DNA of 64,000 nucleotides from an uncultured Gammaproteobacteria bacterium. GTDB taxonomy: Bacteria > Patescibacteriota > Patescibacteriia > Magasanikbacterales > UBA922. The notes beneath the pieces were generated by a model. That model did no database searches, was not told the origin of the DNA, and saw nothing but the letters and a program-made list of their open reading frames with translations. The DNA is taken from NCBI GenBank assembly GCA_964435035.1, contig CAYSXR010000001.1, positions 144,192 through 208,191 on the forward strand, in the 5' to 3' direction. Every line of letters starts with the position of its first letter. Position 1 is the first letter of the stretch. A program made the translations under genes and the position numbers. Shown in pieces: positions 11,900-51,821 of the stretch.

Positions 11900-14800
11900 A
11901 TGAATAAAAGGAGGGGGAAGAAAACACAATTCTTAAGTTATTTTTTATTCTGCTTATTCATTTCTATTATTTTTGGAAAAAATGCGTTCGCTAGTCAGGA
12001 GATACAAAGGTTTCTTATCTTACCTTTTTCTAGTGAAATAAGGTTATTGCAGGGCTGGGAATATACTATGCTAGTTCGAGGTAATAAGATACATGGAGGG
12101 ATTGATTATGATTGTAATTTAGGAGATCCGATTTATGCATCATATGATGGTGAAGCAATGACATCGGTTCAAGTTGAAAAAAAGTCTGGAGCTGGTTATG
12201 GAAATTTTGTTTTTATAAAACACCATAATGGATATGCAACATTGTATGGACACTTAAACAAAGTTGCAGAACATATTACTTTGTATCCTTCTGGGCTACG
12301 AAGTAATACTAATTATGTTGAATGGACGTCAGTTCTGAAAGGAGATTATATTGGTGACTGCGGGACTTCTGGAACCGACAATGTGCATCTGCATTTTGAA
12401 GTGACTACGGGAAAATATTCAACAGGTAGAATAGATAGCTATGATCTATACAAGACCAAACAATTTTATCCACCGAATGCGTCATACACTACCATGGGGG
12501 AAAAACATTTGTGGATGAGCGATCCTCCCCAATATCTAGAAGCAAAACATGTCGAGAATCAAAAAGGTAGGGCAACTGAAGAAAATAAAAATATTTGGGA
12601 GACAATAAAAGATTGGTTTGCGTCAAAAGAATCTAAGTCAGTTGGTGTGGTGTTAGGTGGAGAAAAAGAGTTACCAGAGAAAAAGGAAGAATTAGGGTTA
12701 TCTTTTGTTGATAGAAAAATTTTTGTATCGTCCACCGCCACCACTGAGGATATCTCAGTGGTGGTACAAGCAAAAAATACTGGTTCAAAAATTTGGAAAA
12801 AACAGGAAATCTCGCTTAATGTAATTGGAGGACGTGAAGCAAATGCGCCATTTAGGCATGCCTCATGGATTACCGATCTGCGTCCTGCGCTTCTCGATAA
12901 TACAGATATAAAACCAGGAGAAACAGGTTCGTTTAGTTTTAGTATTAAAAGTTTGCCTGAAGGTCTACATACAATAAAATTAATGGTAGTAGAAGTGGGG
13001 ACATGGAAACAAATAGGGAGTGAATATGTTGAGATTGAAATATTGGTTGCTAAACCAGTTAAAGAGCTGACTGAAGAGAGCAGAGAAGAGGGAATAGCTG
13101 AAGGAGTTATTCATGGAATAAAAGAATTTGCTGAAACAGTGGTGGACAAGGTGGTCGATGTAATCAAATCAGTACCAAAAATTTTTAGAGGTGGAGGAGG
13201 GAGTGGTGGTTCTCGACAATCGAATGAGAGTGTTGATACTATCACCGAAAGTCCTACTGAAGAAGTGATCCTGATAGAAGAAGATAATATAGTAGATGAA
13301 GATAGTGAAATCGAAAGTGTTTCTGACATGAGTAGAGAAATCATATTCAATGAAATTGCATGGTCCGGGTCAAGTTCGGTCTGCACTGATCGAGAATGGA
13401 TTGAAATATATAATGCATCGAGTACAGTCCTCTCACTTGAAAATTGGAAATTAGATATTTCTACTGCAGAGTCTACAAGTAGTATTGCGTTAGTCGGATC
13501 AATTGAAGCATATGGATATTATCTCATCTCACACGCAAATATATTTTCTTCGTTTATTACAACAGATGCGATATTACCTCAGCAGATACAAATTCCAGAT
13601 AGTGGTGCGAGATTGGTATTAAAAAATCAAGATGGTGAAAACATTGATGAGATAGACCAAACCAATGGGTGGCTTGGTGGAGATATGGGGCAATTCCCAC
13701 ATACGCTTGAGCGTGTTGCATCAAGTACATGGGGCACTAGTAACTCAGTGCGATATGGGGCACAATCAGGCAATTGTGGACAAATCACTGGTAGTCCTCG
13801 AATGGAAAATGATGGATATGCATTTATTTCAGATGCCACGTTGGGCTTTTATTCAAGGAATGTAGAAGGAAATATAATACTTACTCAAGAGGAAAATCCG
13901 TATTTATTTTCTAGTGTTACGATACCAGAAGATGAGGTGGTCGAAATTGGTTCAGGTGTGGTTTTTGTAGGCACTAATCCAGAGTCAAGAATGGTGGTGC
14001 AAGGTGAATTGGTCTTGAAGGGGGAAGAAAATGATCCAGTTGTAGTTACTTCGAGACACGATCATGAAGTTGTGACAACAAGTGCGTTATTTTCTAGTAT
14101 CTTTACCGGAGACTTCGCACAAGCAGGAGATTGGCAAAATATTGAAGTTTTGGAAAGTGGAAAATTAAAGATTGATCACAGTGTGTTGAAATATGGGGGA
14201 AATAAATTTGGTGTGAGTGCATTCTGTCAGGGTTGTAGTCGTTCACAAGTAATTACTAATATTGGTGGTGAGGTTGTATTACAAAATGTTGAAATTGGAA
14301 ATGGATTTGAATTAGGAAGTGGCGCGGGTCCAGATGTACTAGTCTATTCAAACAATGGAACTCTTAACTTACAAAATGTACAACTCCATAATGGAAAACG
14401 GGCGCTGCATAGTGAGGGAAATACAGAAGTTTTAGCGAGGTCTGTAGATGTGCATAATTTTGATTTGTCAGATAAGGTAATATATGTTGAACAGAAAATG
14501 CCTGCTGTATGGGAAGATGTAGATTTTTTAGAAAATACACCCTCGTATGCGTATAGTCCTGCATTAGTTGTAACTAGTTCGTACACACTTTCACCTGATC
14601 ATGCGTTTGAGTTTGGTATGGTATCCATAGAATCAGGTGGAGAGCTTGTGCTCGACGGGGGAAATTTGTATGCGCGTGAAATTACCGTACAAGGAAACTT
14701 GCGTTCTGGTGAAAATGAACACATGAGTGAAATAGCAGGTGGTGTATCACCTTCATCAACATTTTCTCGAATATTATTTTCAGTTGGATCATTGGGTAAT

Positions 14801-15238
14801 CTTGAGAATATAAAAATTCGAGGCGGGGGATATTTTCAAAGTACTTCGGGTTATCCATTTTCTTCACCTCGTCCCTATATGATATGGGTTGATGGGGCGA
14901 CGGTCTCAATTTCGCATTCTCAGTTGATTGATTCAAGACGTCCTGGCGGAATAATGGTAGTTCGAAATGGAAAAGTAGATATACAGGACACGGAGATAGG
15001 ATGGAATAGTGGGTATAATAAATTAAACAGTTTCGTAGAATATGGAATGGTATTGAATACTCAATCAGTTGGTCATATTGAAAATGTAAACTTCAGAAAA
15101 ATGGATTATGTGGTCGAATTGAATCAAGGGTCAACTGTAACCTTTGATCGGATGAGTAAAGCAAATTTGATTGATTTGTATCCTGCATTTTTTCCGAGCA
15201 AAAATTGGTTCCCGACAAGTATATTTCCATTTCAATAG
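11900..15238 (+). CDS. Secreted M23 peptidase fused to a lamin-tail (LTD) domain and a beta-helix region
   Basis: Signal peptide. M23 motifs HGGIDYD (HxxxD) and HLHFEV (HxH). LTD-like segment IIFNEIAWSGSS...EWIEIYNAS...LENWKL. Long C-terminal repetitive beta-rich region. Confidence 0.8.
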   Translation: MNKRRGKKTQFLSYFLFCLFISIIFGKNAFASQEIQRFLILPFSSEIRLLQGWEYTMLVRGNKIHGGIDYDCNLGDPIYASYDGEAMTSVQVEKKSGAGYGNFVFIKHHNGYATLYGHLNKVAEHITLYPSGLRSNTNYVEWTSVLKGDYIGDCGTSGTDNVHLHFEVTTGKYSTGRIDSYDLYKTKQFYPPNASYTTMGEKHLWMSDPPQYLEAKHVENQKGRATEENKNIWETIKDWFASKESKSVGVVLGGEKELPEKKEELGLSFVDRKIFVSSTATTEDISVVVQAKNTGSKIWKKQEISLNVIGGREANAPFRHASWITDLRPALLDNTDIKPGETGSFSFSIKSLPEGLHTIKLMVVEVGTWKQIGSEYVEIEILVAKPVKELTEESREEGIAEGVIHGIKEFAETVVDKVVDVIKSVPKIFRGGGGSGGSRQSNESVDTITESPTEEVILIEEDNIVDEDSEIESVSDMSREIIFNEIAWSGSSSVCTDREWIEIYNASSTVLSLENWKLDISTAESTSSIALVGSIEAYGYYLISHANIFSSFITTDAILPQQIQIPDSGARLVLKNQDGENIDEIDQTNGWLGGDMGQFPHTLERVASSTWGTSNSVRYGAQSGNCGQITGSPRMENDGYAFISDATLGFYSRNVEGNIILTQEENPYLFSSVTIPEDEVVEIGSGVVFVGTNPESRMVVQGELVLKGEENDPVVVTSRHDHEVVTTSALFSSIFTGDFAQAGDWQNIEVLESGKLKIDHSVLKYGGNKFGVSAFCQGCSRSQVITNIGGEVVLQNVEIGNGFELGSGAGPDVLVYSNNGTLNLQNVQLHNGKRALHSEGNTEVLARSVDVHNFDLSDKVIYVEQKMPAVWEDVDFLENTPSYAYSPALVVTSSYTLSPDHAFEFGMVSIESGGELVLDGGNLYAREITVQGNLRSGENEHMSEIAGGVSPSSTFSRILFSVGSLGNLENIKIRGGGYFQSTSGYPFSSPRPYMIWVDGATVSISHSQLIDSRRPGGIMVVRNGKVDIQDTEIGWNSGYNKLNSFVEYGMVLNTQSVGHIENVNFRKMDYVVELNQGSTVTFDRMSKANLIDLYPAFFPSKNWFPTSIFPFQ

Positions 15239-15324
15239 TAGTCGTTGAGGATTTGTTAAGGGGTATTTTGTATATAGAAATGCATTTTTTTGGCTTATTT
15301 TAGGGAAATTATAGTACAAAAGTA

Positions 15325-15353
15325 TTGACAAATTGTCTCACGTGTGATACTAT
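15325..15353 (+). promoter_or_regulatory. Sigma70-type promoter (TTGACA-17-TACTAT)
   Basis: ttgaca at 15325-15330, a 17-nt spacer, then tactat at 15348-15353. Located 78 nt upstream of the GC-rich CDS at 15431. Confidence 0.6.
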
Positions 15354-15430
15354 TTTACATTCCAAGTGAAGAGGCGTCTGCCTTTTTACCTCTGGGATAT
15401 AACAAGATCCTTAGGTTATAGGTGTAACTC

Positions 15431-15772
15431 ATGGCTCGTTTGATCGACATGTACTTCACTGCCCCCGTGGTCAACCACTGGACTACCTTCTACGAGAAGG
15501 CGTTCATGGGGGAGCTGATCATGGTTTACATCCATGGGGTGGGACGTCGCTGGGTACTTCTCCAGGACTTTCGCAGTAACGAGGAGGCTAAGAAACTTGA
15601 GTTCAGGGTACAGATTGTGCCGGAGCCGGGTAAAAAAAACCGGGACTCGATACCAAACAGCTGGTTTACTGGCACCTACTCCTGGGAGACCAACGATGGT
15701 TACCTCAAACTGCCGTCGGTTATGCGGCCATTGCCGTCGGTTATCCTCTCAAGCTGGATCAACCACGCCTGA
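15431..15772 (+). CDS. Hypothetical protein, GC-rich islet gene 1
   Basis: 113-aa ORF with GC-biased codons unlike its neighbours. Own promoter and downstream terminator. No recognised motif. Confidence 0.55.
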   Translation: MARLIDMYFTAPVVNHWTTFYEKAFMGELIMVYIHGVGRRWVLLQDFRSNEEAKKLEFRVQIVPEPGKKNRDSIPNSWFTGTYSWETNDGYLKLPSVMRPLPSVILSSWINHA

Positions 15773-15784
15773 GGCAATAGCACA

Positions 15785-15841
15785 CCCGACGCGTGCACAA
15801 GATTTGTTCCCACATGGGCACAAAATCGCGCACGCGTCGGG
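15785..15841. repeat. Nested GC-rich inverted repeat (cruciform/hairpin)
   Basis: Perfect 12-bp arms cccgacgcgtgc / gcacgcgtcggg enclose an inner hairpin tttgttccca-ca-tgggcacaaa. Confidence 0.7.
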
Positions 15842-15849
15842 AACAATCT

Positions 15850-15880
15850 ACCCTATACCATGATTGGTATGGGGTTTTTG
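15850..15880 (+). terminator. Rho-independent terminator
   Basis: accctatacca-tga-ttggtatggggt hairpin followed by ttttt. Confidence 0.65.
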
Positions 15881-15975
15881 TTTACAAAAATATTTTTTAC
15901 ACGTAAAATATCTCACGTTGATTCTGCAATACATAGTGCAGAAATGGCTCCATCGAAAAAGAGGGGGTTCGCAAA

Positions 15976-16392
15976 ATGGTCTACGATAAAAAATACTCGG
16001 TCGTGCACGAATGGCTGAGACGATTCAATCTGCATGAGGTGGAAGGTCTCCTGGAGCTCTACGTTGAGAAGCCCGCTCATACCTCTATGGATATCAAAAA
16101 AGCACACCCGAAGACGTACGGCACTATCTATGGAAGGACCCCGCTGTCCCAGTGGTGGTACCGGTGCTTCGAGTGCGATCCGAATCTCAGGTACGAGATG
16201 GATCTGTACCTCTCGTCTGGAGGAGACACTGCAGTACTCGTCTACTTCGAGGGGGTCGGTGGTGGAAATCCTCCAGCACATCGGATGATCACCTTCACCT
16301 TCGAGGGTCTCCTGATCAAGAGTACGAAGACTGAAGATGTGGACGATCATAGTTCACACATTCGTGGTGCAATCAACCCACGAGCCAACTGA
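15976..16392 (+). CDS. NTF2/SnoaL-like fold protein (tentative), GC-rich islet gene 2
   Basis: 138 aa. The N-terminus EWLRRFNLHEVEGLLELYVEKP resembles the SnoaL/NTF2-like helix pattern. SD agaggggg and a tttaca-17-taaaat promoter lie upstream. Preferred over the antisense ORF 15913-16350. Confidence 0.5.
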   Translation: MVYDKKYSVVHEWLRRFNLHEVEGLLELYVEKPAHTSMDIKKAHPKTYGTIYGRTPLSQWWYRCFECDPNLRYEMDLYLSSGGDTAVLVYFEGVGGGNPPAHRMITFTFEGLLIKSTKTEDVDDHSSHIRGAINPRAN

Positions 16393-16533
16393 GTCTCACG
16401 GGGGGCACACTGACAAAAATAGCCCCCCAACCTGTACATATTGGTATATAGCAAGTATCTACAGGTTGGGAGGGAAAATGGGCTATGTTGTGATGCATGT
16501 AGTGCTACCCGATGCGTATCGTATTGATTAGAT

Positions 16534-16569
16534 ACAATAAAACTCTGAGTAATTTCAGAGTTTTATTGT
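16534..16569. terminator. Hairpin terminator between GC-rich islet and tRNA-Lys
   Basis: acaataaaactctga-gtaatt-tcagagttttattgt, with a T-run on the plus strand. Confidence 0.6.
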
Positions 16570-16574
16570 TTTTG

Positions 16575-16647
16575 TGACCCCGGTGGGGATCGAACCCACG
16601 ACCATTGGCTTAAAAGGCCACTGCTCTACCAGCTGAGCTACAGGGTC
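16575..16647 (-). tRNA. tRNA-Lys (anticodon UUU)
   Basis: The reverse complement folds as a cloverleaf: GACCCUG acceptor, GCUCAGCUGGUAGAGC D-arm, anticodon loop CUUUUAA, GGUUCGAUCC T-arm. CCA is not encoded. Confidence 0.9.
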
Positions 16648-16736: not shown

Positions 16737-16794
16737 ACGAGAGACGCGAATATGATATACTAAGTAAACATAAAAGTCAAGTAAACTTTATCTC

Positions 16795-19477: not shown

Positions 19478-19549
19478 AAACACCACCTACATCCTCCCTT
19501 TGCTGCTTCAAAATATTTTGGAGCAATAAAGGGTATGCAGGTGGTGTTT
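19478..19549. terminator. Long bidirectional hairpin between convergent genes
   Basis: aaacaccacctacat ... atgcaggtggtgttt arms (one mismatch), with inner cccttt/aaaggg pairing and the palindrome ttcaaaatattttgga. Confidence 0.6.
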
Positions 19550-19582
19550 GAAAACATCCTCCTCATACCTTGTAAAGACTAG

Positions 19583-19783
19583 TCACTCTACGGACTCTCC
19601 TTCGGTAGTGGCTTTCTCCGACTCTGAGTCGGGGTTGGTATCCTGCGGGCGCGCACGAGCGATCGTATCACTCATGGGACGCCGGATACATTTTCCATTT
19701 TTATCGTAGATCCACACTTTGCCGACGCCATTCTCGATCTCAAGGCGCATTGTCTTGCCGTCGGGTCTAGGAAAAAGTCCCAT
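19583..19783 (-). CDS. Small hypothetical protein, GC-rich islet gene 3
   Basis: 66-aa ORF that is GC-richer than its flanks. Strong SD gaggtga sits 6 nt before the ATG, with an AT-rich tttaca...tatact promoter upstream on the minus strand. Confidence 0.45.
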   Translation of the reverse strand: MGLFPRPDGKTMRLEIENGVGKVWIYDKNGKCIRRPMSDTIARARPQDTNPDSESEKATTEGESVE

Positions 19784-19914
19784 AGCTCACCTCGTTGTTG
19801 TGTCGTAGAAAGGACCTATCTCAGACAGTATACTAAAGTAAATAAACTGTAAATAGTATCGTATTGCCCCTTTTCTTCTTTCACGATACACTATGTTCAT
19901 CCTAATTTTTATAT

Positions 19915-27627: not shown

Positions 27628-29610
27628 ATGAGTAGTTTGATTAAAAAAATAATTTTCGCAGCTTTTCTTCTGTGGCTTGTGCCTTCAGTAATTTTTGCTT
27701 CAGATAGTAATGGTACAATCAATACAAGTCATAAATATGGATGGGGAGAAAACTTGGGTTGGATTAATTTTGCCCCAACTGATGGGTCGAGTAATTATCA
27801 CGGGCTTACCATTACTGATTCTGCTGTTACTGGCTATGCATGGTCAGAAGCCTATGGCTGGATTAATTTTGCTCCAAGTAATGGCGGAGTAACTAATAGC
27901 TGTACCGGACAACTTGGTGGTTGGGCATGGTCTACACAATTGGGCTGGATTTCCATGAGCGGAGTAACAATTGGATCGACCGGAGAATTTAATGGTGTAT
28001 CAGGTGGAACAACGCTTCCTTCGGGTAGAATTACCTTTGATTGTGATAATTGTGATGTGCGTACTGATTGGATTCCTTGCGCTGAGCGTGAAGAAGAAGG
28101 TGGTGGAGGCCCTCCGCCCACCTGTTCCAATGGCGCGTCAGATTATCCAACCTGTACACCACCCACTCCACCAACCTGTTCTAATGGTGCTTCGGATTAT
28201 CCTACCTGCACACCTCCTCCAGATCCCACCTGTTCCAATGGCGCATCAGATTATCCAACCTGTACACCACCCACTCCACCTCCAGATCCAGTCTGCTCTA
28301 ATGGCGCATCAGACTACCCAACTTGTACGCAGCCACCAGATCCCACCTGTTCCAATGGTGCATCAGACTACCCAGCTTGTACTGCCTCTACCGATGGGGG
28401 TGATGGAGGTACCGGAGAGGGTGATGGAGGTGCTAGTGATGGGGGAGAAAGTGAAGGGGCGGGGAGTAGTGGAGGCGGAGGTGGTGGTGTTGCCACAGAA
28501 ATAATTTCAAATATTACTGATTCAGTTGGGGTAGTGGCTGATGCAACAGTAGCTGTTTTGCAAGATGTAGCAGAAGTGCTGGTTACTATTCCCGGAGTAC
28601 AAACTGTAGTTAATGCGGCCCAAGTTGCTATAGAAAGAACAGAAAAAGTTATTAATAATCCTACGGTTGAAAAAATAGATGAAGCAGTTTCAACTCCAGT
28701 GCTCACAGCAACAGCTGTAGTAAACGTAGTAGTAGGTGGTGCAACATTATTTTCGCAGATTTTAATATTTCTCCGTTTATTGTTTTTGCAGCCCTTACTA
28801 TTATTATTCAAACGTCATAAACAAAAAACATGGGGAACGGTTTTCAATAGTCATACAAAGCAACCTCTTGATTTGGCAATGGTGCGTCTGGTGCATGGAG
28901 AAAATGACACAATTGTACGCACCCAGGTGACTGATGCCCAGGGTCGTTATTTTATGGCTGCAGGAAGTGGTACGTATATTTTGAAGACTACTAAAGAAGG
29001 TTTTGGTCCACATAGTGGAACGCAAGCTGAAGATTCGGTATATCCAAATTTGTATCGTGGAGAAAAATTGGAATTAGTGGACAGAGAAAGTGAACTTAAT
29101 TACAACATCCCGCTTGAACCAGTGTATGAGGCAAAGAGTACTGCTGATATAATCAAAGAATATTCGAGAAAAACATTCCAAAAAACGTTGAGTTTGATTG
29201 GTGCAATTGCAACGGTGGCATCACTGATTATTTCTCCAAACATTTGGATGGCTGCTCTTTTGGTAGTACATCTGCTTATCTATGTGGTCATGAAACGGTT
29301 TGCACAAAAAAAAGTAAAAGGTGATCGTGGAATAGTAGTGGATAGTAAAACTAAAAAACCAATGAAGAAGGTGGTGATCCGTGTGTTTGATAATGCATAC
29401 AATAAATTGGTGGACACTGCAATTACTGATAACAATGGGTGTTATGCGGTTCTAGTGGGTCCTAGTACTTATTATATTACTGCAGAAAAAGAAGGGTATG
29501 CTCCATATCAGTCTGATACGATTGATCTAACGAGTAAAAAGACTAATGGAATTGGAGGTGTTATTACAGAAAACTTCTCTTTGATGTCAGTTGATGAAAA
29601 GAAAAAGTAA
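27628..29610 (+). CDS. Surface protein with GW-type repeats, Cys/Pro tandem repeats and the same C-terminal anchor module
   Basis: 660 aa with a signal peptide and 3x YGWxxxLGWINFAP repeats. The tandem-repeat and anchor-module evidence is given under 28123..28383 and in the findings. Confidence 0.8.
   Translation: MSSLIKKIIFAAFLLWLVPSVIFASDSNGTINTSHKYGWGENLGWINFAPTDGSSNYHGLTITDSAVTGYAWSEAYGWINFAPSNGGVTNSCTGQLGGWAWSTQLGWISMSGVTIGSTGEFNGVSGGTTLPSGRITFDCDNCDVRTDWIPCAEREEEGGGGPPPTCSNGASDYPTCTPPTPPTCSNGASDYPTCTPPPDPTCSNGASDYPTCTPPTPPPDPVCSNGASDYPTCTQPPDPTCSNGASDYPACTASTDGGDGGTGEGDGGASDGGESEGAGSSGGGGGGVATEIISNITDSVGVVADATVAVLQDVAEVLVTIPGVQTVVNAAQVAIERTEKVINNPTVEKIDEAVSTPVLTATAVVNVVVGGATLFSQILIFLRLLFLQPLLLLFKRHKQKTWGTVFNSHTKQPLDLAMVRLVHGENDTIVRTQVTDAQGRYFMAAGSGTYILKTTKEGFGPHSGTQAEDSVYPNLYRGEKLELVDRESELNYNIPLEPVYEAKSTADIIKEYSRKTFQKTLSLIGAIATVASLIISPNIWMAALLVVHLLIYVVMKRFAQKKVKGDRGIVVDSKTKKPMKKVVIRVFDNAYNKLVDTAITDNNGCYAVLVGPSTYYITAEKEGYAPYQSDTIDLTSKKTNGIGGVITENFSLMSVDEKKK
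28123..28383 (+). repeat. Five in-frame tandem repeats encoding CSNGASDYPTCT + Pro-rich spacer
   Basis: tgttccaatggcgc(r)tcagattatccaacctgtaca recurs five times with 51-60 bp periods, mostly synonymous variation and variable PPxP spacers. Confidence 0.85.
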
Positions 29611-46297: not shown

Positions 46298-46416
46298 AAG
46301 GTGTTTGGGCTAGAAATGTGCTAAAAAGTATGAGAGTAGTCAAAAGGGGCTACACCCTTTACTTTTTGTCAAAATTTGCATAAAGTACGTTAATGCTTAT
46401 TGTGGCAGGGGTATAC

Positions 46417-46445
46417 TTGACAAAAAGGTATAAATATGCTATAGT
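46417..46445 (+). promoter_or_regulatory. Consensus sigma70-type promoter (TTGACA-17-TATAGT) driving the GC-rich island
   Basis: acTTGACAaaaaggtataaatatgcTATAGTac is near-identical in layout to the promoter at 63780-63808. Confidence 0.7.
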
Positions 46446-46655
46446 ACTGCGTTATTTCAAAAGCCCTACATAGGTCTTCGAAATAGCAATCCAGGGGCCC
46501 CATCAGAGAGGATATGTGTCCCTTCTGATGGAGTCCCTGGTCTAGGAGCTCCCACTGTGGCCCGTTCGGGCAATAGTGAGAGCCTTAGGCTCATTACAAT
46601 CGAAGAAGCTAGAACACGTGCCCCTATGAAAGGGGTGTAAACGAGGAGATCAGAA
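46446..46655 (+). promoter_or_regulatory. Structured 5' leader of about 200 nt
   Basis: Nested helices ccaggg[ccatcaga...tctgatgg]ccctgg, gcccg-tt-cgggc, gagcc-tta-ggctc, and cccct-atgaa-agggg just before SD gaggag. No known riboswitch recognised. Confidence 0.45.
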
Positions 46656-48104
46656 ATGATTGACCGCAACAAGAAGAGCAACAAGAAGAGCACGCCCGTG
46701 AAGGGCGGCGCTGCGGCGAACCCGCAGGCGATGGCAACCGTGGCGTCTCACAAGGACGACACGGCTCAGATCGATGTGGTGGTCGAGACCAATCCCGAGG
46801 CCGACAAGGTCGAGGGTGAGGTCAAGGCCGATGAAGAGGCGAAGGTCGAAGAGACCGTCGCCACCGCCCCGACCGAGAACGTCGAGAAGAGCGAGGAGCC
46901 GGCCGTTGTGGTCGACCCCGAGCCCGAGCTCGAGCAGAAGCGGAACTTCCGTAAGGAAGACCTCCGCCTCCGGTACAACGACAACCCGCAGGTGCTGCTC
47001 ACCTCCGCGGATCTCAGCGAAGAGGACAAGGTCCTCATCGGCGAGATCGCGAGCGAGCAGAACCAGGTCGTCCGCGACTATGCCGCGCTGGCACAGGAGC
47101 TGACCGACGAGAAGGACCAGCTCGAGCAGAAGCTCGACGCGACCAACTCCAAGCTGGGGAACGTCACCAACCTCATCGCGACCACGGTCAAGGAGACCGT
47201 GGGACAGGTGGACAAGGAGACGTCGGCCTTGATCGAAGGTCTGAAGATCGAGATCGAGGGCGTCATCGGCAAGGGTAACGGCGTGAAGAACGCCGTCACG
47301 AAGATCGGGGACGATGTCAACAAGGACATCGGCTCGCTCAAGGGTCAGGTCAACGCCAACGCCAAGTCGGTCAACGACAAGGTCGATGGGATGGCCGCGA
47401 TGCTCGGGAAGATCGACGAGAAGATCTCCGAGATCAAGTCCCCGCCGCCCCCGCAGCAGCCGCCGGCTCAGTCCAGCACCACCCCGTCCTCCGGATCCTC
47501 CGGGTGGCCGTGGGTCGTGGCCGTGGGCATCTTGCTCGCGGCCGTGATCGCGGTCTTCCTCCTGAACAAGGATGTGAAGATCGAGGTCCAGGTGCAGCAG
47601 CCGGCGGTGAACACCGTGAAGGGTGTGGTGCCGCCGGTGGTGGACAACGCTCTCGGGGTGACCTCGCAGCAGGTGACCCCGGGTGGACCGGGGAATCCGA
47701 TCGTGCCCACGGTGGTCGGTGCCACGTCCGAGGATCCCTGCAAGGGGAAGGTCGGTGGGGAGCTCGGGTCGTGTGTCCTTCAGCTGGAGAAGTTCCGGCC
47801 GAAGGGGTTCACTGATGCGCACTGGAACACGGTCGTCGAGACCTTCCAGAACGTCATCATGGTCCCCTTGAGCGTTCCGTTCAAGGACATCAAGCACCAC
47901 GACAAGGCCATCGAGCACAACATGAGGAAAGACGCGGCACTGCAGGCGTGCGTCGACGCATACGTCTTGAAGACGGATGATGTCGAGTCGAACGTCCGGT
48001 GTCAGCGGGCGGTCGATTGTCTGTTCACTTCGGTGGACGAGGCAGCACAGTGCTACATGACGCATACGCGCTCGATCACGGGCGTTTTGGTCACTGTCAA
48101 CTGA
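46656..48104 (+). CDS. Bitopic membrane protein: acidic coiled-coil N-domain, Pro-rich linker, TM, Cys-containing C-domain (island gene a)
   Basis: 482 aa with an SD upstream. TM helix WPWVVAVGILLAAVIAVFLL. Seven Cys residues, all C-terminal to the TM. Extreme GC3 codon usage (AAG/GAG/GAC/AAC/ATC). Confidence 0.75.
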   Translation: MIDRNKKSNKKSTPVKGGAAANPQAMATVASHKDDTAQIDVVVETNPEADKVEGEVKADEEAKVEETVATAPTENVEKSEEPAVVVDPEPELEQKRNFRKEDLRLRYNDNPQVLLTSADLSEEDKVLIGEIASEQNQVVRDYAALAQELTDEKDQLEQKLDATNSKLGNVTNLIATTVKETVGQVDKETSALIEGLKIEIEGVIGKGNGVKNAVTKIGDDVNKDIGSLKGQVNANAKSVNDKVDGMAAMLGKIDEKISEIKSPPPPQQPPAQSSTTPSSGSSGWPWVVAVGILLAAVIAVFLLNKDVKIEVQVQQPAVNTVKGVVPPVVDNALGVTSQQVTPGGPGNPIVPTVVGATSEDPCKGKVGGELGSCVLQLEKFRPKGFTDAHWNTVVETFQNVIMVPLSVPFKDIKHHDKAIEHNMRKDAALQACVDAYVLKTDDVESNVRCQRAVDCLFTSVDEAAQCYMTHTRSITGVLVTVN

Positions 48105-48119
48105 ACCTCAACCCAACTA

Positions 48120-48145
48120 GTCCGACCTCCCTCGGGAGGTCGGAC
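48120..48145 (+). other. Intercistronic GC hairpin
   Basis: gtccgacctcc-ctcg-ggaggtcggac forms a perfect 11-bp stem between island genes a and b. No T-run, so probably not a full terminator. Confidence 0.5.
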
Positions 48146-48159
48146 ACAGGAGAACAGAC

Positions 48160-49095
48160 ATGAAGCAGCTCGTCGCGAAGATCGTGGTTTATTACATCGT
48201 ACTTCTCTCGGCGTCGGCCTTCGGCTCGACGCCGAACCCCGGTGACCAGTTCGACCTGATCCAGGGAGGGATCCCGGCGAAGGTCGAGGTCACGCAGCAG
48301 GAGATCAAGGCGATGGACACGTCCATCGACCAGCTCCTGAAGCGCACCGGCGGTCTCCTCAAGAAGGACGCCGAGCTCAAGAAGGAGCTCGAGGACCTCA
48401 AGAAGGAGCTCGAGGACCTCAAGAGCAAGCTCGACAAGGTGGTGAAGCCGGGTGATCTCACGGTCATCCGAGTGGATCTGGGAAGGTTGTGGACGCAAGT
48501 CAACAACCATGGACAGCGCCTCACCGAGCTCGAGCAGGACGTCGAAGATCTGAAGAGGAGCGACAAGGCTCAGGACGATCGACTCGGTGATCACGACCAG
48601 AAAATCGAGGACATCAACAAGCGCCTCGATCGAGGTCTCGGAGTGAAGTTCGGCATCGGAGCCTATGGCGTCTACGGGACGCAAGGCTCGATCAACGGTG
48701 GAGCTTCGGCTCGGCTGAGGATCCCGCTGTCCGGTGGATGGCAAGCGATCGTCAATGGCGGAGTCGGCGGCAACCATCAGGGAGCTTCAGGATTCGCCGA
48801 TCTGTCGGTCGGCTACCAGTTCGCGAGCGGCATCTACCTGGGGGCAACCCTCGGTATCGACGCCAACTGCGACGGTATGTGCACCAGGCTCCTCACGGAG
48901 ATCTGGGGCGCAGGTCCCGACATCGGCTACCTGTCCGACGATGGACTCTTCATCCGGGCTCGTGTGCTCTTCGGGAGCGAGTGGATCAAGGGTCCGACGA
49001 TGCAGATCGAGTACCCGGATCGTACGGTCTTCAAGACCGACGAGTCCCGGGAGTTCGGCATCTCGGCTTTGATCCAGCTCGGTCACGAGTTCTAG
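48160..49095 (+). CDS. Signal-peptide protein with coiled coil and C-terminal OMP-like beta-barrel ending in Phe (island gene b)
   Basis: 311 aa with signal peptide ..LLSASAFG and heptads ELKKELEDLKKELEDLKSKLD. The last 150 aa or so have alternating Gly/aromatic beta-strand patterns and end ..ALIQLGHEF. Confidence 0.7.
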   Translation: MKQLVAKIVVYYIVLLSASAFGSTPNPGDQFDLIQGGIPAKVEVTQQEIKAMDTSIDQLLKRTGGLLKKDAELKKELEDLKKELEDLKSKLDKVVKPGDLTVIRVDLGRLWTQVNNHGQRLTELEQDVEDLKRSDKAQDDRLGDHDQKIEDINKRLDRGLGVKFGIGAYGVYGTQGSINGGASARLRIPLSGGWQAIVNGGVGGNHQGASGFADLSVGYQFASGIYLGATLGIDANCDGMCTRLLTEIWGAGPDIGYLSDDGLFIRARVLFGSEWIKGPTMQIEYPDRTVFKTDESREFGISALIQLGHEF

Positions 49096-49346
49096 ACTTC
49101 AAGATTCGGGGAGTGTCTCTACTCCCCGGACCCCTCACCTCGCCGACTTCAAGGCAGAAGGGATAAGACAATGAGACAAACACTCGAGTAAACGGCGTGG
49201 TCGCACAACGCGGCCCCCAATACTGGAGCATGGGCGATATTTCGAAAGAAATGTCGCCCCTCGCACAGCGTATATCAGTCTCTGGTATGCGATGACGAGA
49301 AAAGCATCTCACGTAAATCCCGACTAAATCGGGACACGTGACAAGC

Positions 49347-49375
49347 TTGACAAACGAGAGTATTTATGCTATACT
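49347..49375 (+). promoter_or_regulatory. Consensus sigma70-type promoter (TTGACA-17-TATACT)
   Basis: gcTTGACAaacgagagtatttatgcTATACTaag, located inside an AT-rich spacer of the GC-rich island. Confidence 0.7.
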
Positions 49376-49498
49376 AAGCTGTTACAAAATAAAGAAGTGC
49401 CATGGGAAATCTCGATGTAGTCGGGGTATCTATGGTAGATCGTCATGCACTGCATGGTGGTCCATTGAACCTTACAATATATGCGAAATGTATAAAAA

Positions 49499-49543
49499 GC
49501 TTGAAAGGCTAGAAAGGCCGGAAAGGCTTGAAATGCTAGAGAA
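49499..49543 (+). repeat. Five tandem 9-nt repeats (GCYNGAAAG) in a 5' leader
   Basis: gcttgaaag gctagaaag gccggaaag gcttgaaat gctagagaa. Confidence 0.75.
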
Positions 49544-49551
49544 CGTATCTT

Positions 49552-49677
49552 GTGACGTGAAGAAAGAAATTTTCAATAAGAATTTTTTCTTAGCGTCACG
49601 AGGAGTTCTCAGGCGTGAAAACTTCTCGTGTGGTACACGAGGAAGCAACAACAAAACCCCGATTGAATCGGGGAGGA
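49552..49677 (+). promoter_or_regulatory. Leader with mutually exclusive hairpins and a hairpin abutting the SD
   Basis: gtgacg...cgtcac hairpin. cttctcgtg (49622-30) can pair with cacgaggag (49597-605) or with cacgaggaag (49636-45). ccccga-ttgaa-tcgggg overlaps the 5' edge of SD ggaggag. Confidence 0.45.
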
Positions 49678-49685
49678 GAAGAGTC

Positions 49686-51452
49686 ATGAAGAAGTTCAAC
49701 AAGTTCCTGTTCGTCGTCATGTTCATCTCGTTCGTCGCGGCCATCACGGGCTGCGCCGATCACGGTGGCGAGACGGTCGTCGTCAAGGGTGACGATGGGG
49801 AGAGCGTCAAGCTCTGCCCCGAGGAGCATCAGTGCTCCTCGGCCGAGTTCTGCAACTCGCAGGGTCTCTGCGTCATCCCCGGTGCCAACGGCACCAACGG
49901 CGAGGACTTCGAGCGATGCTCGAATAGTCGTGGTGACTGTGTCGGTAACGAGCTCTGCAACTCGCAGGGCGTGTGTGTGCTCGAAGGTCCGCAAGGGCCG
50001 GCGGGGGAGTCCTGTACCGTGTCGACGAAGGTCGACGGGTGCTTCTTCCTCTACTGTGGCGCAAGCGTCACGGAGATCTGCGACGGCGAGGACGGTGTGT
50101 CCTGCACGGTCGCAGGGCAGCCGGACGGCAGCGCTCAGGTCGAGTGCTCGGACGGTTCGTTCGCGACCATCCTCCCCGGACAAGACGGCGAGGACGGTCT
50201 CAACGGCACGAGCTGCACGGCCTCGACGGTCAAAGGTTGCCTCGTGGTGACCTGCGGAACGCAGTCGACGGAGATCTGCCCGGAGGATCTTCCGGATCCC
50301 GAGCCGGTCGACGGCTGCCAGAAGGACTCGGACTGCACGGACGGCAGCGAGTGCACCAACGACATCTGCGATCTCAACACCGGCACCTGCCGGTACGTGT
50401 CGCAGGTGTGTGATGACGGCGTCGCCTGCACCAACGACTGGTGTGACACGAACGGCTACTGCCGTTCGACCGCGGACAATGATCAGTGCAGCGGCGGCGA
50501 CTTCTGCTTGCCGACCGGTTACTGGTTTTGGTCCTCGGCGGTGGGTTCTGAGGAACTCGCTGACGGAGGCTGTTACGAGTGCCGCTGGGACTCTGATTGT
50601 GCCGACGGCGACGCGTGTACGGTCGACACCTGCGACGCGGGTGTTTGCAAGAAGGAAACGCGCGAGTGCCCCACGGGTGCGACGTGCGTCGAGTACTCGA
50701 GCAACTACTACGACGACTCGGAGTGGAACTACGTGTGCCAGGACAATCCGTCGTGCAGCAACAACAGCCAGTGCGACGACGGCAAGTACTGGACGACGGA
50801 TGCGTGCGTGGCCGGGGAGTGTGTCTACACCCAGGTGTCGTGCAACGACAACAACGCATGCACCGTGGACACGGTGAACTCGAGTGGGCAGTGCACCTAC
50901 GCCCAGATCTCGTGCGACGATGGCAAATCCGCCACGGTCGACACGTGCTCTGCGAATACGGGGTGCGTACACACGCCGGTGAACACCGGCTGCGAGCACG
51001 ATCTCGATTGCGATGACGTCGACGGTACGACCACGGACCTGTGCGAGGACAACGGGAGCTGTACACATACTCCCAATGCCCAGTGCAAGTCCCTGACGGT
51101 CAAGGTCGGCTGGGCCATCCTGTGGTCGCGCGGTCCCGAGATCGGAACCACCAATGTCCCGATGGGCAACTGGCGTAGCTGCGAGGAAGACGAGGCGGAG
51201 AACTGCCGTACCATGTCGTGGTGCGGTGACGACATCGTGGAGTTCAATGTTCAGCAGATGCCGAACGTGGCAGGTGCCGACTGGCTCGTGAAGAACGAGA
51301 AAGGCGACAGCCCTTGCACGTCGAACGCAGATGCGACCTTGAACTACACGCCCGCTGATCTCTTCGTCGGGGCGACGCCGGTGCAGAAGGGCTGTTCGCT
51401 CTTCTGCGACCCGAACGGGTACACCAACTACACCTGCGATTCCGCGGAGTAG
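49686..51452 (+). CDS. Cys-rich repeat lipoprotein (island gene c)
   Basis: Start MKKFNKFLFVVMFISFVAAITGC (lipobox) follows SD ggggaggag. Repeats of the form C.(D/N)D.C....G.C, resembling Dictyostelium-CTDC-type units. The ORF-track start at 49338 was rejected. Confidence 0.75.
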   Translation: MKKFNKFLFVVMFISFVAAITGCADHGGETVVVKGDDGESVKLCPEEHQCSSAEFCNSQGLCVIPGANGTNGEDFERCSNSRGDCVGNELCNSQGVCVLEGPQGPAGESCTVSTKVDGCFFLYCGASVTEICDGEDGVSCTVAGQPDGSAQVECSDGSFATILPGQDGEDGLNGTSCTASTVKGCLVVTCGTQSTEICPEDLPDPEPVDGCQKDSDCTDGSECTNDICDLNTGTCRYVSQVCDDGVACTNDWCDTNGYCRSTADNDQCSGGDFCLPTGYWFWSSAVGSEELADGGCYECRWDSDCADGDACTVDTCDAGVCKKETRECPTGATCVEYSSNYYDDSEWNYVCQDNPSCSNNSQCDDGKYWTTDACVAGECVYTQVSCNDNNACTVDTVNSSGQCTYAQISCDDGKSATVDTCSANTGCVHTPVNTGCEHDLDCDDVDGTTTDLCEDNGSCTHTPNAQCKSLTVKVGWAILWSRGPEIGTTNVPMGNWRSCEEDEAENCRTMSWCGDDIVEFNVQQMPNVAGADWLVKNEKGDSPCTSNADATLNYTPADLFVGATPVQKGCSLFCDPNGYTNYTCDSAE

Positions 51453-51669
51453 TCGTACCCACAAACATTTCGTGTAAAAGCTTTGAGTAGCCTAGCTACC
51501 AGACTCAAAGTTCAATCAACGTAGCGGGAGGGGGCACAAGCGTTCATCTGAATTGCGCAAGCGATTCAGTGACGAGTGCCTCCCTCCCATTCCAACATAT
51601 CTTTATCAAAATTCAGAACTCAGATTACAGTGAGAGACTAGTGAGTATTGGTAGAGAGATGTGGGGATG

Positions 51670-51727
51670 GAAAATTCAAAACTTAAAACTTAAAACTCAA
51701 AATTTAGATTTAAGTTGTGAGTTATTA
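51670..51727. repeat. A/T-word intergenic repeat (family C, copy 2) inside the GC-rich island
   Basis: gaaaattcaaaacttaaaacttaaaactcaaaatttagatttaagttgtgag. Confidence 0.55.
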
Positions 51728-51795
51728 CAAACCCTTTCCATCATTATGATGGTTTCAATTCCCCTCAACCGCGACGACAGAAATGTCACGCGCGG

Positions 51796-51821
51796 AAAAA
51801 ACCCGCGCATGCGGGTTTTTT
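51796..51821. terminator. Strong bidirectional terminator
   Basis: aaaaaacccgc-gcat-gcgggtttttt. Confidence 0.85.

What the first reader, a model, noticed from the sequence alone, without database searches (positions are those of the whole stretch)
15325..16460. Second GC-rich islet (two small genes) next to the 3' end of tRNA-Lys, each with its own AT-rich promoter
CDSs 15431-15772 and 15976-16392 are visibly GC-richer than the flanks, and overlapping antisense ORFs appear, as in the large island. Each is preceded by AT-rich DNA with a promoter (ttgaca-17-tactat at 15325; tttaca-17-taaaat at about 15882-15910) and followed by its own hairpin. The islet ends about 110 bp from the 3' end of tRNA-Lys, a classical integration hotspot. 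However, I could not find a direct repeat of the tRNA 3' end at the far boundary, and there is no integrase. This is the same mosaic pattern as at 46-55 kb, which suggests a recurrent process rather than a single event.
Basis: partly seen in the sequence, partly recalled or inferred. Interest (0 to 1): 0.5.

Follow-up and report, generated by a model that had tools for sequence, protein, structure and literature searches.

The report
Swappable GC-rich gene cassettes beside tRNA-Lys
The two small GC-rich genes are one version of a fixed hotspot in a group of tiny uncultured bacteria (Magasanikbacteria), where self-contained one-gene units differ between relatives; why they keep a foreign-looking composition is unexplained.

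Summary
Genes A (15431-15772) and B (15976-16392) have GC3 of 0.72 and 0.61, against 0.32±0.05 for 35 other ORFs in the window. GC1 and GC2 are host-like. Each gene has its own sigma-70-like promoter and hairpin or terminator.

I found no integrase within about ±10 kb and no tRNA-fragment repeat. Seven related Magasanikbacteria loci all carry GC3-rich small genes between the same M23/LTD peptidase gene and tRNA-Lys, but the genes differ (families A-E).

In the closest relative, whose ATPase is 91% identical, homology stops at the M23 stop codon. It resumes 2-3 nt from the tRNA 3' end.

A alleles are 25-29% identical between close relatives and synonymously saturated. B is shared with a more distant relative at a dS (synonymous divergence) of 0.66, against flanks of 1.6-2.2. 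dN/dS (non-synonymous to synonymous ratio) is 0.17-0.43, so these are real genes.

A conserved, covarying hairpin plus terminator follows every A allele. B is a SnoaL_2/NTF2-like protein. A is an orphan.

My best reading is a replacement-type hotspot of moron-like cassettes, exchanged by homologous recombination in the conserved flanks. The persistent GC3 richness is unexplained. A third such islet lies at about 19.5-19.85 kb, and some relatives have an empty site there.

The parts
11900..15238 (+). Left anchor: 1112-aa secreted-type protein with Peptidase_M23 and Lamin-tail (LTD) domains. Homology with relatives ends at its stop codon.
   Evidence: Pfam hits. The blastn boundary against L085 is at window 15232. 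The strain variant L004 has 68 mismatches in 14783-15178 and then a single mismatch through 16348.
15239..15430 (+). AT-rich spacer (34% GC) with the gene A promoter (TTGACA-17-TACTAT, TG-extended, 15325-15353) and a roughly 77-nt leader. An AGGTG ribosome-binding site lies 8 nt before the ATG.
   Evidence: This stretch is not homologous to the equivalent stretch in any relative.
15431..15772 (+). Gene A (allele A1): 113 aa, GC3 0.72. It belongs to an orphan, fast-diverging family. The low-confidence structure model is all-beta.
   Evidence: No Pfam, NCBIfam, PADLOC or PHROG hit. Only self hits among 5.8 billion proteins. Distant homology to L085 A3 (E 2e-5), and A3 to L086 A4 (E 7e-7). dN/dS for A1-A3 is 0.43 and for A4-A5 is 0.17. 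The AF2 model has pLDDT 52.
15782..15882 (+). Conserved 3' element of the A cassette. It has a long hairpin (arms 15785-15796/15830-15841, base CCGAC/GTCGG), a linker GGRRACAATYTACYC, and an intrinsic terminator (15850-15875 plus T-run).
   Evidence: Present after the A allele in all five loci that carry one (window, L001, L085, L086, L099). Folding z-scores run from -4.6 to -10.5. Stem positions 7-11 show G-C/C-G/A-U/U-A swaps between loci. It occurs once in the window. No Rfam match.
15881..15909 (+). Gene B promoter, TTTACA-17-TAAAAT. Its -35 hexamer overlaps the T-run of the preceding terminator.
   Evidence: It is about 90% conserved with L001.
15976..16392 (+). Gene B: 138 aa, GC3 0.61, a SnoaL_2 / NTF2-like protein.
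   Evidence: Its only close relative is L001 B' at 67% aa identity. dS is 0.66 against 1.6-2.2 for flanking genes, and dN/dS is 0.35.
16393..16573 (+). 3' region of the B cassette: a hairpin at 16423-16473 and a perfect 15-bp hairpin at 16534-16569 followed by a T-run, abutting the tRNA 3' end.
   Evidence: Conserved with L001 only. It is replaced in L085, L086 and L089, where homology resumes at window 16569-16572.
16574..16647 (-). Right anchor: tRNA-Lys(UUU). Its 3' end faces the islet.
   Evidence: It is 97.5-100% identical in all relatives.
16752..16780 (-). Promoter-like site TTGACT-17-TATCAT upstream of tRNA-Lys. It is conserved in relatives and belongs to the right anchor.
19478..19850 (-). 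A separate mini-islet of the same build, in the ATPase-pyruvate kinase gap. It has a long hairpin (19478-19549), a 66-aa ORF (19583-19783, minus strand, GC3 0.58), and a minus-strand promoter TTTACA-17-TATACT.
   Evidence: A homolog is present in the window, L001, L086 and L087. L099 and L100 have long, GC-rich gaps with other content. L085, L101, L089 and L088 have empty gaps of 69-119 bp.

Best explanation
The islet is one allelic state of a fixed, always-occupied hypervariable hotspot. It lies between the M23/LTD peptidase gene and tRNA-Lys in a lineage of Candidatus Magasanikbacteria (CPR/Patescibacteria).

The hotspot holds one to three self-contained single-gene units. Each unit has its own sigma-70-type promoter, a GC3-rich ORF (110-150 codons; one unit, E, has 282), and a long hairpin or terminator. 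The units come from a small pool restricted, as far as sampled, to these relatives: families A, B, C, D and E.

Shown: units are replaced wholesale between close relatives and shared between distant ones. The breakpoints fall at the conserved anchors, namely the last codons of the M23 gene and the tRNA-Lys 3' end. They also fall at short conserved cores inside the hairpin-terminator element that follows every A allele.

Inferred: the exchange works by homologous recombination of incoming DNA in these conserved anchors, with no dedicated recombinase. This is a replacement-type flexible islet built from moron-like cassettes.

The genes are real protein genes under purifying selection. B is a SnoaL_2/NTF2-fold protein. 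A is a rapidly diverging orphan.

Inferred with low confidence: these are conflict-type accessory proteins, of the immunity or defence kind, kept diverse by frequency-dependent selection.

The GC3 richness is a stable property of the cassette coding sequences. It is not a fresh import signature, and its cause is not established.
For: Taxon: the ATPase homologs are named Candidatus Magasanikbacteria.

Synteny: M23/LTD, then small genes, then tRNA-Lys on the minus strand, then P-type ATPase, then pyruvate kinase. L001, L085, L086, L089/90/91 and L100 show the whole arrangement. The contigs of L099 and L101 begin inside the variable region, so only its right part and the right anchor are seen there.

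Contents differ, and every cassette has GC3 0.57-0.82 against host values of 0.26-0.36:
- window: A1 + B
- L001: A2 + B'
- L085: A3 + C
- L086: D + A4
- L099: A5 + C
- L101: C
- L089: D
- L100: E

Boundaries: against the closest relative L085 (flanks 86-89% nt identity), homology ends at 15232 and resumes at 16572.

Incongruence: the ATPases of window, L085 and L086 are 89-92% identical, but their A alleles are 23-29% identical. L086 and L099 have ATPases 72% identical but A alleles 64% identical. B occurs only in the window and L001, whose ATPases are 76% identical.

Ages: A1-A3 has dS 1.86 against flank dS 0.66-0.81. B has dS 0.66 against flank dS 1.6-2.2.

dN/dS of 0.17-0.43 shows these are coding genes.

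The conserved 3' element is itself mosaic. L085 has the L001-type hairpin interior (91% over 69 nt) and the L086-type terminator stem (89% over 55 nt).

Strain-level evidence: L004 carries a near-identical islet (1 mismatch in 1170 nt) next to an M23 3' end that is 17% divergent. L002 joins an L001-type islet to a window-type ATPase inside tRNA-Lys.

No integrase and no att repeat were found.

A second hotspot 3 kb away has filled and empty states that are incongruent with phylogeny.
Against: - Recombination in the flanks is inferred from breakpoint positions only. No recombination event is observed directly.
- L002 and L004 are short contigs assembled from single sequencing runs (Logan collection), from a sample that holds both islet types. 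The L002 join inside the roughly 100-nt identical tRNA segment could be an assembly chimera.
- Only about eight independent loci were available. The genome contigs and metagenome-contig scans did not add relatives.
- The conflict or immunity role has no direct support. There are no PADLOC, PHROG or Pfam hits for A, C or D, and both structure models were unusable (pLDDT 52 and 44).
- The model does not explain why the cassettes are GC3-rich when the equally mosaic M23/LTD gene has GC3 0.27.
Confidence: 0.55

Rival explanations
1. A remnant of a classical tRNA-targeting genomic island. An integrase-carrying element inserted into the 3' end of tRNA-Lys and later lost its integrase and most of its cargo, leaving two foreign genes.
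For: The variable DNA abuts the tRNA 3' end to within 2-5 nt in every comparison. The composition is atypical.
Against: No partial tRNA repeat rises above chance. No integrase lies within about 10 kb of the islet in the window, and none is recorded in the precomputed gene tables of the seven related loci. The left boundary is the stop codon of a conserved gene in all relatives, not a variable att site. The site is occupied in all relatives that cover it and has no empty state. A-family alleles are far older than the host splits.
Confidence: 0.07
2. Repeated recent imports from a GC-rich donor. The donor could be the bacterial host of the CPR cell or a GC-rich mobile element. Each lineage acquired its cassettes independently, and they have not yet ameliorated.
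For: GC3 of 0.57-0.82 with both C3 and G3 raised is what a 55-65% GC donor would give. The large island at 46-55 kb is even richer, with GC3 up to 0.88. B's family (SnoaL_2) is widespread.
Against: A1 has no relative other than itself in 5.8 billion proteins. B's nearest relative outside the clade is 34% identical. No phage, plasmid or viral-contig hits were found. The A family, with a conserved 3' element, sits at the same locus in five lineages, and its alleles are synonymously saturated yet still GC3-rich. The promoter and spacer DNA that travels with the cassettes is 31-34% GC. A genome-wide donor bias would not leave it that way.
Confidence: 0.15
3. An integron-like, site-specific cassette system. 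The conserved hairpin after gene A would act as an attC-like recombination site, used by a recombinase encoded elsewhere. This is comparable to attC clusters that lack an integrase (CALINs).
For: The hairpin has a sequence-conserved base (ACCCGAC...GTCGGGA; 6 of 7 match RYYYAAC/GTTRRRY in the window copy) and a variable, covarying interior, as attC sites do. Cassette order is modular, and recombination breakpoints lie inside the element.
Against: There is only one such element per locus and one in the 64-kb window. B, C, D and E cassettes have different hairpins. The cassettes carry their own promoters and lie on both strands, unlike integron cassettes. No integrase is nearby. The canonical GTT of the core site is GTC here. 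The hairpin is directly followed by a T-run terminator, and the terminator stem has a U·G pair that works only on the plus-strand RNA. This fits a transcript 3' structure.
Confidence: 0.08
4. An artefact. On this view the GC-rich stretch is a mis-assembly or binning chimera, or the 'genes' are structured non-coding RNA or chance ORFs in GC-rich DNA.
For: GC-rich DNA yields long spurious ORFs on several frames. The host is a metagenome-assembled genome.
Against: The same joins appear in independent assemblies. L003 is 100% identical across M23-A-B-tRNA. Five or more other assemblies show the same architecture. The excess GC is frame-specific, with GC3 far above GC2. dN/dS is 0.17-0.43 in the called frames. 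The antisense ORF is not conserved. There is no Rfam hit.
Confidence: 0.02

Closest known systems
Phage 'morons' (independent promoter-gene-terminator units with deviant GC content inserted between conserved genes; Cumby, Davidson and Maxwell 2012, PMC3594210)
   Same: Each unit has its own promoter and terminator. [quoted passage not shown] It is present or absent, or replaced, between otherwise collinear relatives. Most units are a single small gene of unknown function.
   Different: The units sit in a bacterial chromosome between housekeeping genes, not in a phage or prophage. No phage genes are nearby and there are no PHROG or phage-database hits. The site near tRNA-Lys is always occupied and behaves as an allelic series rather than as 'more DNA'.
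Replacement-type flexible genomic islands and recombination hotspots between conserved core genes (own knowledge: for example O-antigen or capsule loci, and the 'flexible genomic islands' of Rodriguez-Valera and co-workers)
   Same: The location is fixed between conserved anchors. Non-homologous or highly divergent alleles occur in close relatives. Alleles are shared across lineages. Exchange is inferred to occur by homologous recombination in the flanks, with no integrase.
   Different: The scale is 0.7-1.8 kb with one to three genes, rather than tens of kb. The cargo is small cytoplasmic orphans rather than glycan-synthesis genes. The uniform, persistent GC3 excess runs opposite to the usual AT-rich bias of such islands.
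tRNA-linked integrative genomic islands
   Same: The variable DNA lies directly next to the 3' end of a tRNA gene and has atypical composition.
   Different: There is no integrase, no direct repeat of the tRNA 3' end, and no empty site.
Integron gene cassettes / CALINs
   Same: Small single-gene modules. A hairpin-forming element has a conserved base and a variable interior at the 3' end of the A cassette. Cassette combinations are shuffled.
   Different: The cassettes have their own promoters and lie on both orientations. There is one element per locus and no IntI. The core motif is not canonical, and the hairpin is fused to an intrinsic terminator.
rAID-1 orphan-immunity gene arrays of Bacteroidales (Ross et al., bioRxiv 10.1101/471110)
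   Same: Arrays of small accessory genes with skewed GC content and conserved intergenic motifs, thought to be actively acquired. Diversity is driven by conflict. According to my own recollection (Zhang et al. 2012), the NTF2-like fold is a known immunity-protein fold.
   Different: rAID-1 is defined by a XerD-like recombinase, co-directional genes, low GC and repeated intergenic sequences. None of these is met here. No homology to known immunity families was detected.

Membership tests
tRNA-targeting integrative genomic island | Integrase (tyrosine or serine recombinase) gene at one end | tested here: not met
   Pfam scans of the ORFs from 240 to 29610 found none. None is recorded in the precomputed gene tables of the related loci.
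tRNA-targeting integrative genomic island | Direct repeat of the tRNA 3' part at the far boundary (attL/attR) | tested here: not met
   No match to a 22-mer with up to 3 mismatches. The best 12- to 25-mers equal shuffled controls.
tRNA-targeting integrative genomic island | Empty site in some relatives | tested here: not met
   All seven related loci that cover the site are occupied, with gaps of 757-1813 bp.
Integron cassette array / CALIN | Two or more attC sites with R''/L''-L'/R' architecture and a GTTRRRY core | tested here: not met
   There is one hairpin element per locus and per 64-kb window. The core is GTCGGRR, not GTTRRRY.
Integron cassette array / CALIN | Promoterless, co-oriented cassettes | tested here: not met
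   Each cassette has a near-consensus promoter. C and D lie on the opposite strand.
Phage moron | Own promoter and terminator, with GC content different from neighbours | tested here: met
Phage moron | Located in a phage or prophage genome | tested here: not met
   The neighbours are PheST, an M23 peptidase, tRNA-Lys, a P-type ATPase and pyruvate kinase. No PHROG or phage-database hits.
Replacement-type flexible genomic islet (recombination hotspot) | Fixed position between conserved anchors, with non-homologous or very divergent content in close relatives | tested here: met
Replacement-type flexible genomic islet (recombination hotspot) | Allele distribution and age incongruent with the core phylogeny | tested here: met
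   Identity matrices. dS contrasts.
Replacement-type flexible genomic islet (recombination hotspot) | Exchange by homologous recombination in the flanks | tested here: inconclusive
   The breakpoints in L004 (M23 3' end) and L002 (tRNA-Lys) fit this. However, L002 could be an assembly chimera, and no event is observed directly.
SnoaL_2 / NTF2-like superfamily (gene B) | Significant match to the Pfam SnoaL_2 model | tested here: inconclusive
   B alone scores 23.9 bits, below the gathering score of 27. However, all 32 members of its phmmer family match SnoaL_2 (best 1.3e-18), and the family profile hits PDB 3h3h, 'SnoaL-like protein', at 3.9e-14. Membership of the superfamily is therefore well supported through the family.
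SnoaL_2 / NTF2-like superfamily (gene B) | alpha+beta cone fold | tested here: inconclusive
   The AF2 model from a 2-sequence alignment has pLDDT 44.
rAID-1 orphan immunity array | 5' XerD-like recombinase, at least 2 co-directional genes, GC at or below 41%, repeated intergenic motif | tested here: not met
   There is no recombinase. GC is 52-54%. The genes lie on both strands in relatives.

The most novel reading that the evidence does not exclude
Magasanikbacteria, and perhaps other CPR bacteria, maintain a recombinase-free cassette system. It consists of a private pool of self-contained mini-genes (consensus promoter, GC3-rich ORF, long hairpin 'handle') that are shuffled among a few intergenic hotspots.

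In this reading the GC3-rich coding composition is actively maintained, by selection at the mRNA level or by a cassette-specific biased process. One example would be resistance of conflict-gene transcripts to AU-targeting ribonuclease toxins.

The signature persists through synonymous saturation. It is also absent from the co-transferred spacers and from the equally mosaic neighbouring gene.
Probability: 0.15. Interest if true: 0.7.

Novelty: new variant of a known kind. Interest (0 to 1): 0.48.

Why it matters
CPR/Patescibacteria have tiny genomes and are thought to live as episymbionts. Little is known about their accessory gene pools or how they exchange genes.

This locus gives a compact, well-bounded example of gene-cassette turnover without any dedicated recombinase. 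It has a conserved structured 3' element, and a family of orphan proteins (A) whose alleles are only 25-29% identical between genomes that are 90% identical elsewhere.

The stable GC3 excess is a concrete compositional puzzle. The values are 0.6-0.8 in a background of 0.3, despite saturated synonymous divergence. It bears on how far 'atypical composition' can be read as 'recent horizontal transfer'. If the excess is maintained by selection or by a biased process, composition-based island callers would systematically misdate such genes.

Tried and rejected
1. A genome-contig scan with the M23/LTD alignment. The back-translated patterns hit only the widespread LTD domain in unrelated phyla.

2. 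A metagenome-contig scan for the conserved linker GCGTCGGRRACAATYTACYC. The seven hits were all chance matches in GC-rich contigs with no hairpin or terminator.

3. AlphaFold2 of A1 (single sequence, pLDDT 52) and of B (2 sequences, pLDDT 44). The Foldseek search of the A1 model against the PDB gave nothing with E ≤ 0.001. These results are unusable.

4. An A-family profile against PDB sequences gave only E ≈ 1 noise.

5. PADLOC, PHROGs and NCBIfam scans of ten cassette proteins. The only hits were weak PRTase-like ones for D (pyrE_Therm, 8e-6 for L089 D) and a 0.011 PHROG hit for one C.

6. Viral contigs, phage and plasmid databases for A1 and B gave no match. The A alignment was too divergent for the search for related loci.

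7. Rfam at gathering threshold and at E ≤ 1 returned only the tRNA and tmRNA.

8. GC-biased gene conversion as the sole cause of the GC3 excess. I consider it unlikely, because the adjacent and equally mosaic M23/LTD gene has GC3 0.27 and the co-transferred spacers are 31-34% GC.

9. An M23-toxin/immunity pairing. I considered and set it aside. The M23 C-terminus is conserved right up to the stop codon while the cassettes change. By eye, the cassette proteins have no obvious N-terminal signal peptide, which immunity to a wall hydrolase would need. This was not tested with a predictor.
Full report
**1. The observation**

- GC in 400-bp windows rises from 0.33-0.42 in the flanks to 0.53 over each of the two CDSs.
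- For 340-bp windows outside the two GC-rich regions, the mean is 0.400, sd 0.037 and the 99th percentile 0.50. Gene A (15431-15772) is 0.535 and gene B (15976-16392) is 0.518.
- The excess is confined to third codon positions. GC1/2/3 is 0.49/0.39/0.72 for A and 0.55/0.40/0.61 for B.
- Thirty-five other ORFs of the window have GC3 0.322±0.047, with a maximum of 0.45. This gives z = 8.5 for A and 6.1 for B. Both C3 and G3 are raised.

The promoter-like sites are at the stated positions: TTGACA-17-TACTAT at 15325 (with an upstream TG) and TTTACA-17-TAAAAT at 15881.

Gene A is followed by a 12-bp perfect hairpin (15785-15796/15830-15841) and an intrinsic terminator (15850-15875 plus T-run). Gene B is followed by a hairpin at 16423-16473 and a 15-bp perfect hairpin at 16534-16569 with a T-run.

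tRNA-Lys(UUU) is at 16574-16647 on the minus strand.

The overlapping ORFs exist: 15913-16350 on the minus strand and 15534-15863 on the plus strand. The antisense ORF is not conserved in the relative L001. I read it as a by-product of stop-poor DNA.

**2. Are they genes, and is the assembly sound?**

A Logan contig from a different run (L003, SRR12762283) is 100% identical to window 14786-16618. It spans the M23 gene end, A, B and part of the tRNA.

For homologous cassette pairs, dN/dS is 0.35 (B), 0.43 (A1-A3), 0.17 (A4-A5) and 0.28 (D). The called frames are therefore under purifying selection.

Rfam finds nothing in the islet. Artefact and non-coding readings are rejected.

**3. Host and synteny**

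Homologs of the downstream P-type ATPase are named Candidatus Magasanikbacteria.

Exact look-ups of graded ATPase homologs gave seven further independent loci:

| Locus | ATPase identity to window |
|---|---|
| L085 | 91% |
| L086 | 89% |
| L101 | 87% |
| L001 | 76% |
| L099 | 71% |
| L089/90/91 | 69% |
| L100 | 63% |

All loci whose contigs cover the whole interval share the same order. It runs from the M23/LTD peptidase gene, through a set of small genes and tRNA-Lys (minus strand), to the ATPase and pyruvate kinase.

**4. The key result: a hotspot with changing content**

The interval between M23/LTD and tRNA-Lys is GC-rich in every locus (0.43-0.52, against 0.40-0.46 for the loci as wholes). 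Its genes differ:

| Locus | Content |
|---|---|
| window | A1 (+) and B (+) |
| L001 | A2 (+) and B' (+) |
| L085 | A3 (+) and C (-) |
| L086 | D (-) and A4 (+) |
| L099 | A5 (+) and C (-) |
| L101 | C (-) |
| L089 | D (-) only |
| L100 | two AT-rich small genes and a 282-aa GC3-rich gene E |

All of A-E have GC3 0.57-0.82.

Against the closest relative, L085, flanking DNA is 86-89% identical. Homology ends at window 15232, just before the M23 stop codon at 15236-15238. It resumes at 16572, which is 2-3 nt from the tRNA 3' end. The whole 1.34-kb interval is replaced.

Against L001, homology is lost only from 15219 to 15824. That stretch covers gene A and its promoter. The homology then returns inside the hairpin after gene A.

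**5. Cassette histories disagree with the host history**

- Window, L085 and L086 have ATPases 89-92% identical, but their A alleles are 23-29% identical.
- L086 and L099 have ATPases 72% identical, but their A alleles are 64% identical.
- B exists only in the window and L001.
- Synonymous divergence of A1-A3 is saturated (dS 1.86), while the flanking genes of the same two genomes have dS 0.66-0.81.
- Conversely, B has dS 0.66 where the flanking genes have dS 1.6-2.2.

So some alleles are much older than the host split, and some were exchanged after it.

A1, A3 and A4 are nevertheless homologous (BLASTP E 2e-5 and 7e-7). All five A proteins share a C-terminal [IV]S.[YW][LTI] motif.

Two strain-level contigs place breakpoints at the anchors.

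- L004 has 68 mismatches in 14783-15178 (the M23 3' end) and then one mismatch in the next 1170 nt.
- L002 is 100% L001-type up to tRNA-Lys and 100% window-type after it.
- L002 may be an assembly chimera. Both types occur in that sample, and the tRNA segment is identical in both.

**6. The conserved 3' element**

Every A allele is followed by the same element of about 100 nt. It has three parts:

- a long hairpin whose base, CCGAC/GTCGG, is conserved in sequence;
- a linker, GGRRACAATYTACYC;
- an intrinsic terminator.

Each copy folds far better than its shuffles, with z from -4.6 to -10.5.

Reading the five structures from the base of the stem, pairs 2-5 are invariant. Pairs 7-11 change by double substitutions. 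Pair 7 is G-C or C-G. Pair 8 is C-G, A-U or G-C. Pair 9 is G-C, U-A or C-G. Pair 10 is U-A or G-C (sequences).

The terminator stem comes in two compensating versions, CCCUAUACCA/UGGUAUGGGG and CCCCACCUUUC/GAAAGGYGGGG. The first version has a U·G pair that is valid only on the plus-strand RNA.

The element is mosaic. L085 combines the L001-type hairpin interior (91% over 69 nt) with the L086-type terminator (89% over 55 nt).

It occurs once in the window, and Rfam has no match for it.

I read it as a transcript 3' structure (stabiliser plus terminator) whose conserved cores also serve as recombination joints. The second part is inference.

**7. No classical integration signature**

No part of the tRNA is repeated in or beyond the islet. 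No integrase or other recombinase domain occurs in the ORFs between 240 and 29610. None is recorded in the precomputed gene tables of the related loci either. No relative that covers the site has it empty.

**8. What the proteins are**

B belongs to a family of roughly 120-aa proteins with the motif W..AFN.HD...L..LY..DA.H.SP...PET.G.I.GK.AL..WW.

- All 32 aligned members match Pfam SnoaL_2.
- The profile hits PDB 3h3h (SnoaL-like) at 3.9e-14.
- B alone is just under the Pfam threshold, at 23.9 against 27 bits.

A, C and D have no significant match in Pfam, NCBIfam, PADLOC or PHROGs. The exception is a weak PRTase-like signal for D.

The structure models were too poor to use.

By eye, none of the proteins has an obvious N-terminal signal sequence. 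This was not tested with a predictor.

**9. The pattern recurs**

The large island at 46.3-55.2 kb has genes with GC3 0.65-0.88. They are separated by AT-rich spacers that carry TG-extended TTGACA-17 promoters at 46417, 49347 and 52740.

I also found a third unit in the ATPase-pyruvate kinase gap. It has:

- a long hairpin at 19478-19549 (z = -9.1);
- a 66-aa ORF on the minus strand at 19583-19783 (GC3 0.58);
- a minus-strand promoter.

A homolog is present in the window, L001 and L086/L087 (52-56% aa identity). L100 has a different 145-aa GC3-rich gene there. L085, L101, L089 and L088 have a gap of only 69-119 bp. This distribution again disagrees with the ATPase tree. Here true empty sites exist, and no target-site duplication is visible.

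**10. Interpretation**

The best-supported reading is a replacement-type hotspot populated by moron-like single-gene cassettes from a pool seen so far only in these relatives. I infer that they are exchanged by homologous recombination in conserved anchors. I put this at 0.55.

I commit, with low confidence, to a conflict-type role for the cargo, of the immunity or defence kind. The grounds are extreme allelic divergence, presence/absence polymorphism and lateral exchange. From my own recollection of Zhang et al. 2012, the NTF2 fold also recurs among immunity proteins. No homology test here supports this role.

**11. What remains unexplained**

The GC3 excess is not a fresh-import signal.

- It persists between alleles that are synonymously saturated.
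- It is absent from the spacers that move with the cassettes (31-34% GC).
- It is absent from the neighbouring, equally mosaic M23/LTD gene (GC3 0.27; window-L086 identity 49% against 89% for the ATPase).
- No donor-side homologs were found for A1 or B.

Repeated import from an unsampled GC-rich pool (0.15) and an actively maintained composition (the novel case, 0.15) both remain open.

**12. Comparison with known systems, and verdict**

- The units work like phage morons (definition in PMC3594210) but are not in a phage.
- The locus behaves like a replacement flexible island but is miniature and GC-rich.
- It fails the defining tests for a tRNA-integrase island, for an integron or CALIN, and for rAID-1 arrays (criteria in 10.1101/471110).

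I rate it a new variant of a known kind, of moderate interest (0.48).

Noticed in passing
window 19478-19850: A third GC-rich mini-islet lies between the P-type ATPase and pyruvate kinase genes. It has a long hairpin, a 66-aa minus-strand ORF (GC3 0.58) and its own promoter. A homolog is present in L001 and L086/L087, while L085, L101, L089 and L088 have an empty gap of 69-119 bp. No target-site duplication is visible.
   Followed up: partly
window 46300-55200: The large GC-rich island has genes with GC3 0.65-0.88 that carry TSP_3 and Dicty_CTDC repeats. They are separated by AT-rich spacers with TG-extended consensus promoters (TTGACA-17-TATAGT/TATACT/TATGTT) at 46417, 49347 and 52740. This is the same unit design as the small islet.
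   Followed up: partly
window 11900-15238 (and L085 442-3783, L086 594-4412): The M23/LTD protein is itself hypervariable. Window against L086 is 49% aa identity, where the ATPase is 89%. Its GC3 is host-like (0.27). So mosaicism and GC3 richness are separable in this genome.
   Followed up: partly
L002 1-1963 and L004 1-1574 (Logan contigs, SRR34217543): L002 is 100% L001-type islet up to tRNA-Lys and 100% window-type ATPase after it. L004 has a window-type islet (1 mismatch in 1170 nt) next to an M23 3' end that is 17% divergent. These are either natural recombinants with breakpoints at the two anchors or, for L002, an assembly chimera.
   Followed up: partly
window 27900-28600: A GC 0.50-0.56 stretch lies inside the 660-aa CarboxypepD_reg-domain gene (27628-29610). 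This one is an amino-acid (GC2 0.49) effect with GC3 0.28, so its cause differs from that of the islets.
   Followed up: no
proteins P0125 and P0133: Distant SnoaL_2 relatives of gene B occur as tandem arrays in giant proteins. One has 7 matched stretches in a 1633-aa protein filed under the tubeworm Lamellibrachia. Another has 13 matched stretches in a 2233-aa Lactobacillus protein.
   Followed up: no
L086 4443-4535 and L089 5258-5344: The D cassette ends in its own long hairpin, flanked by A- and T-runs (AAAAACCGTTCGC...GCGAACGGTTTTT). It is 80% conserved between two loci whose D proteins are 44% identical. This suggests that conserved hairpin 'handles' are a general feature of these cassettes.
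   Followed up: no
L100 4238-5772: In the most distant relative, the same interval holds two AT-rich coiled-coil-like small genes (GC3 0.26-0.30) and a 282-aa GC3-rich gene (0.57) with an N-terminal DFDGT motif that looks HAD-like to me (not tested). So not every occupant of the hotspot is GC3-rich.
   Followed up: no
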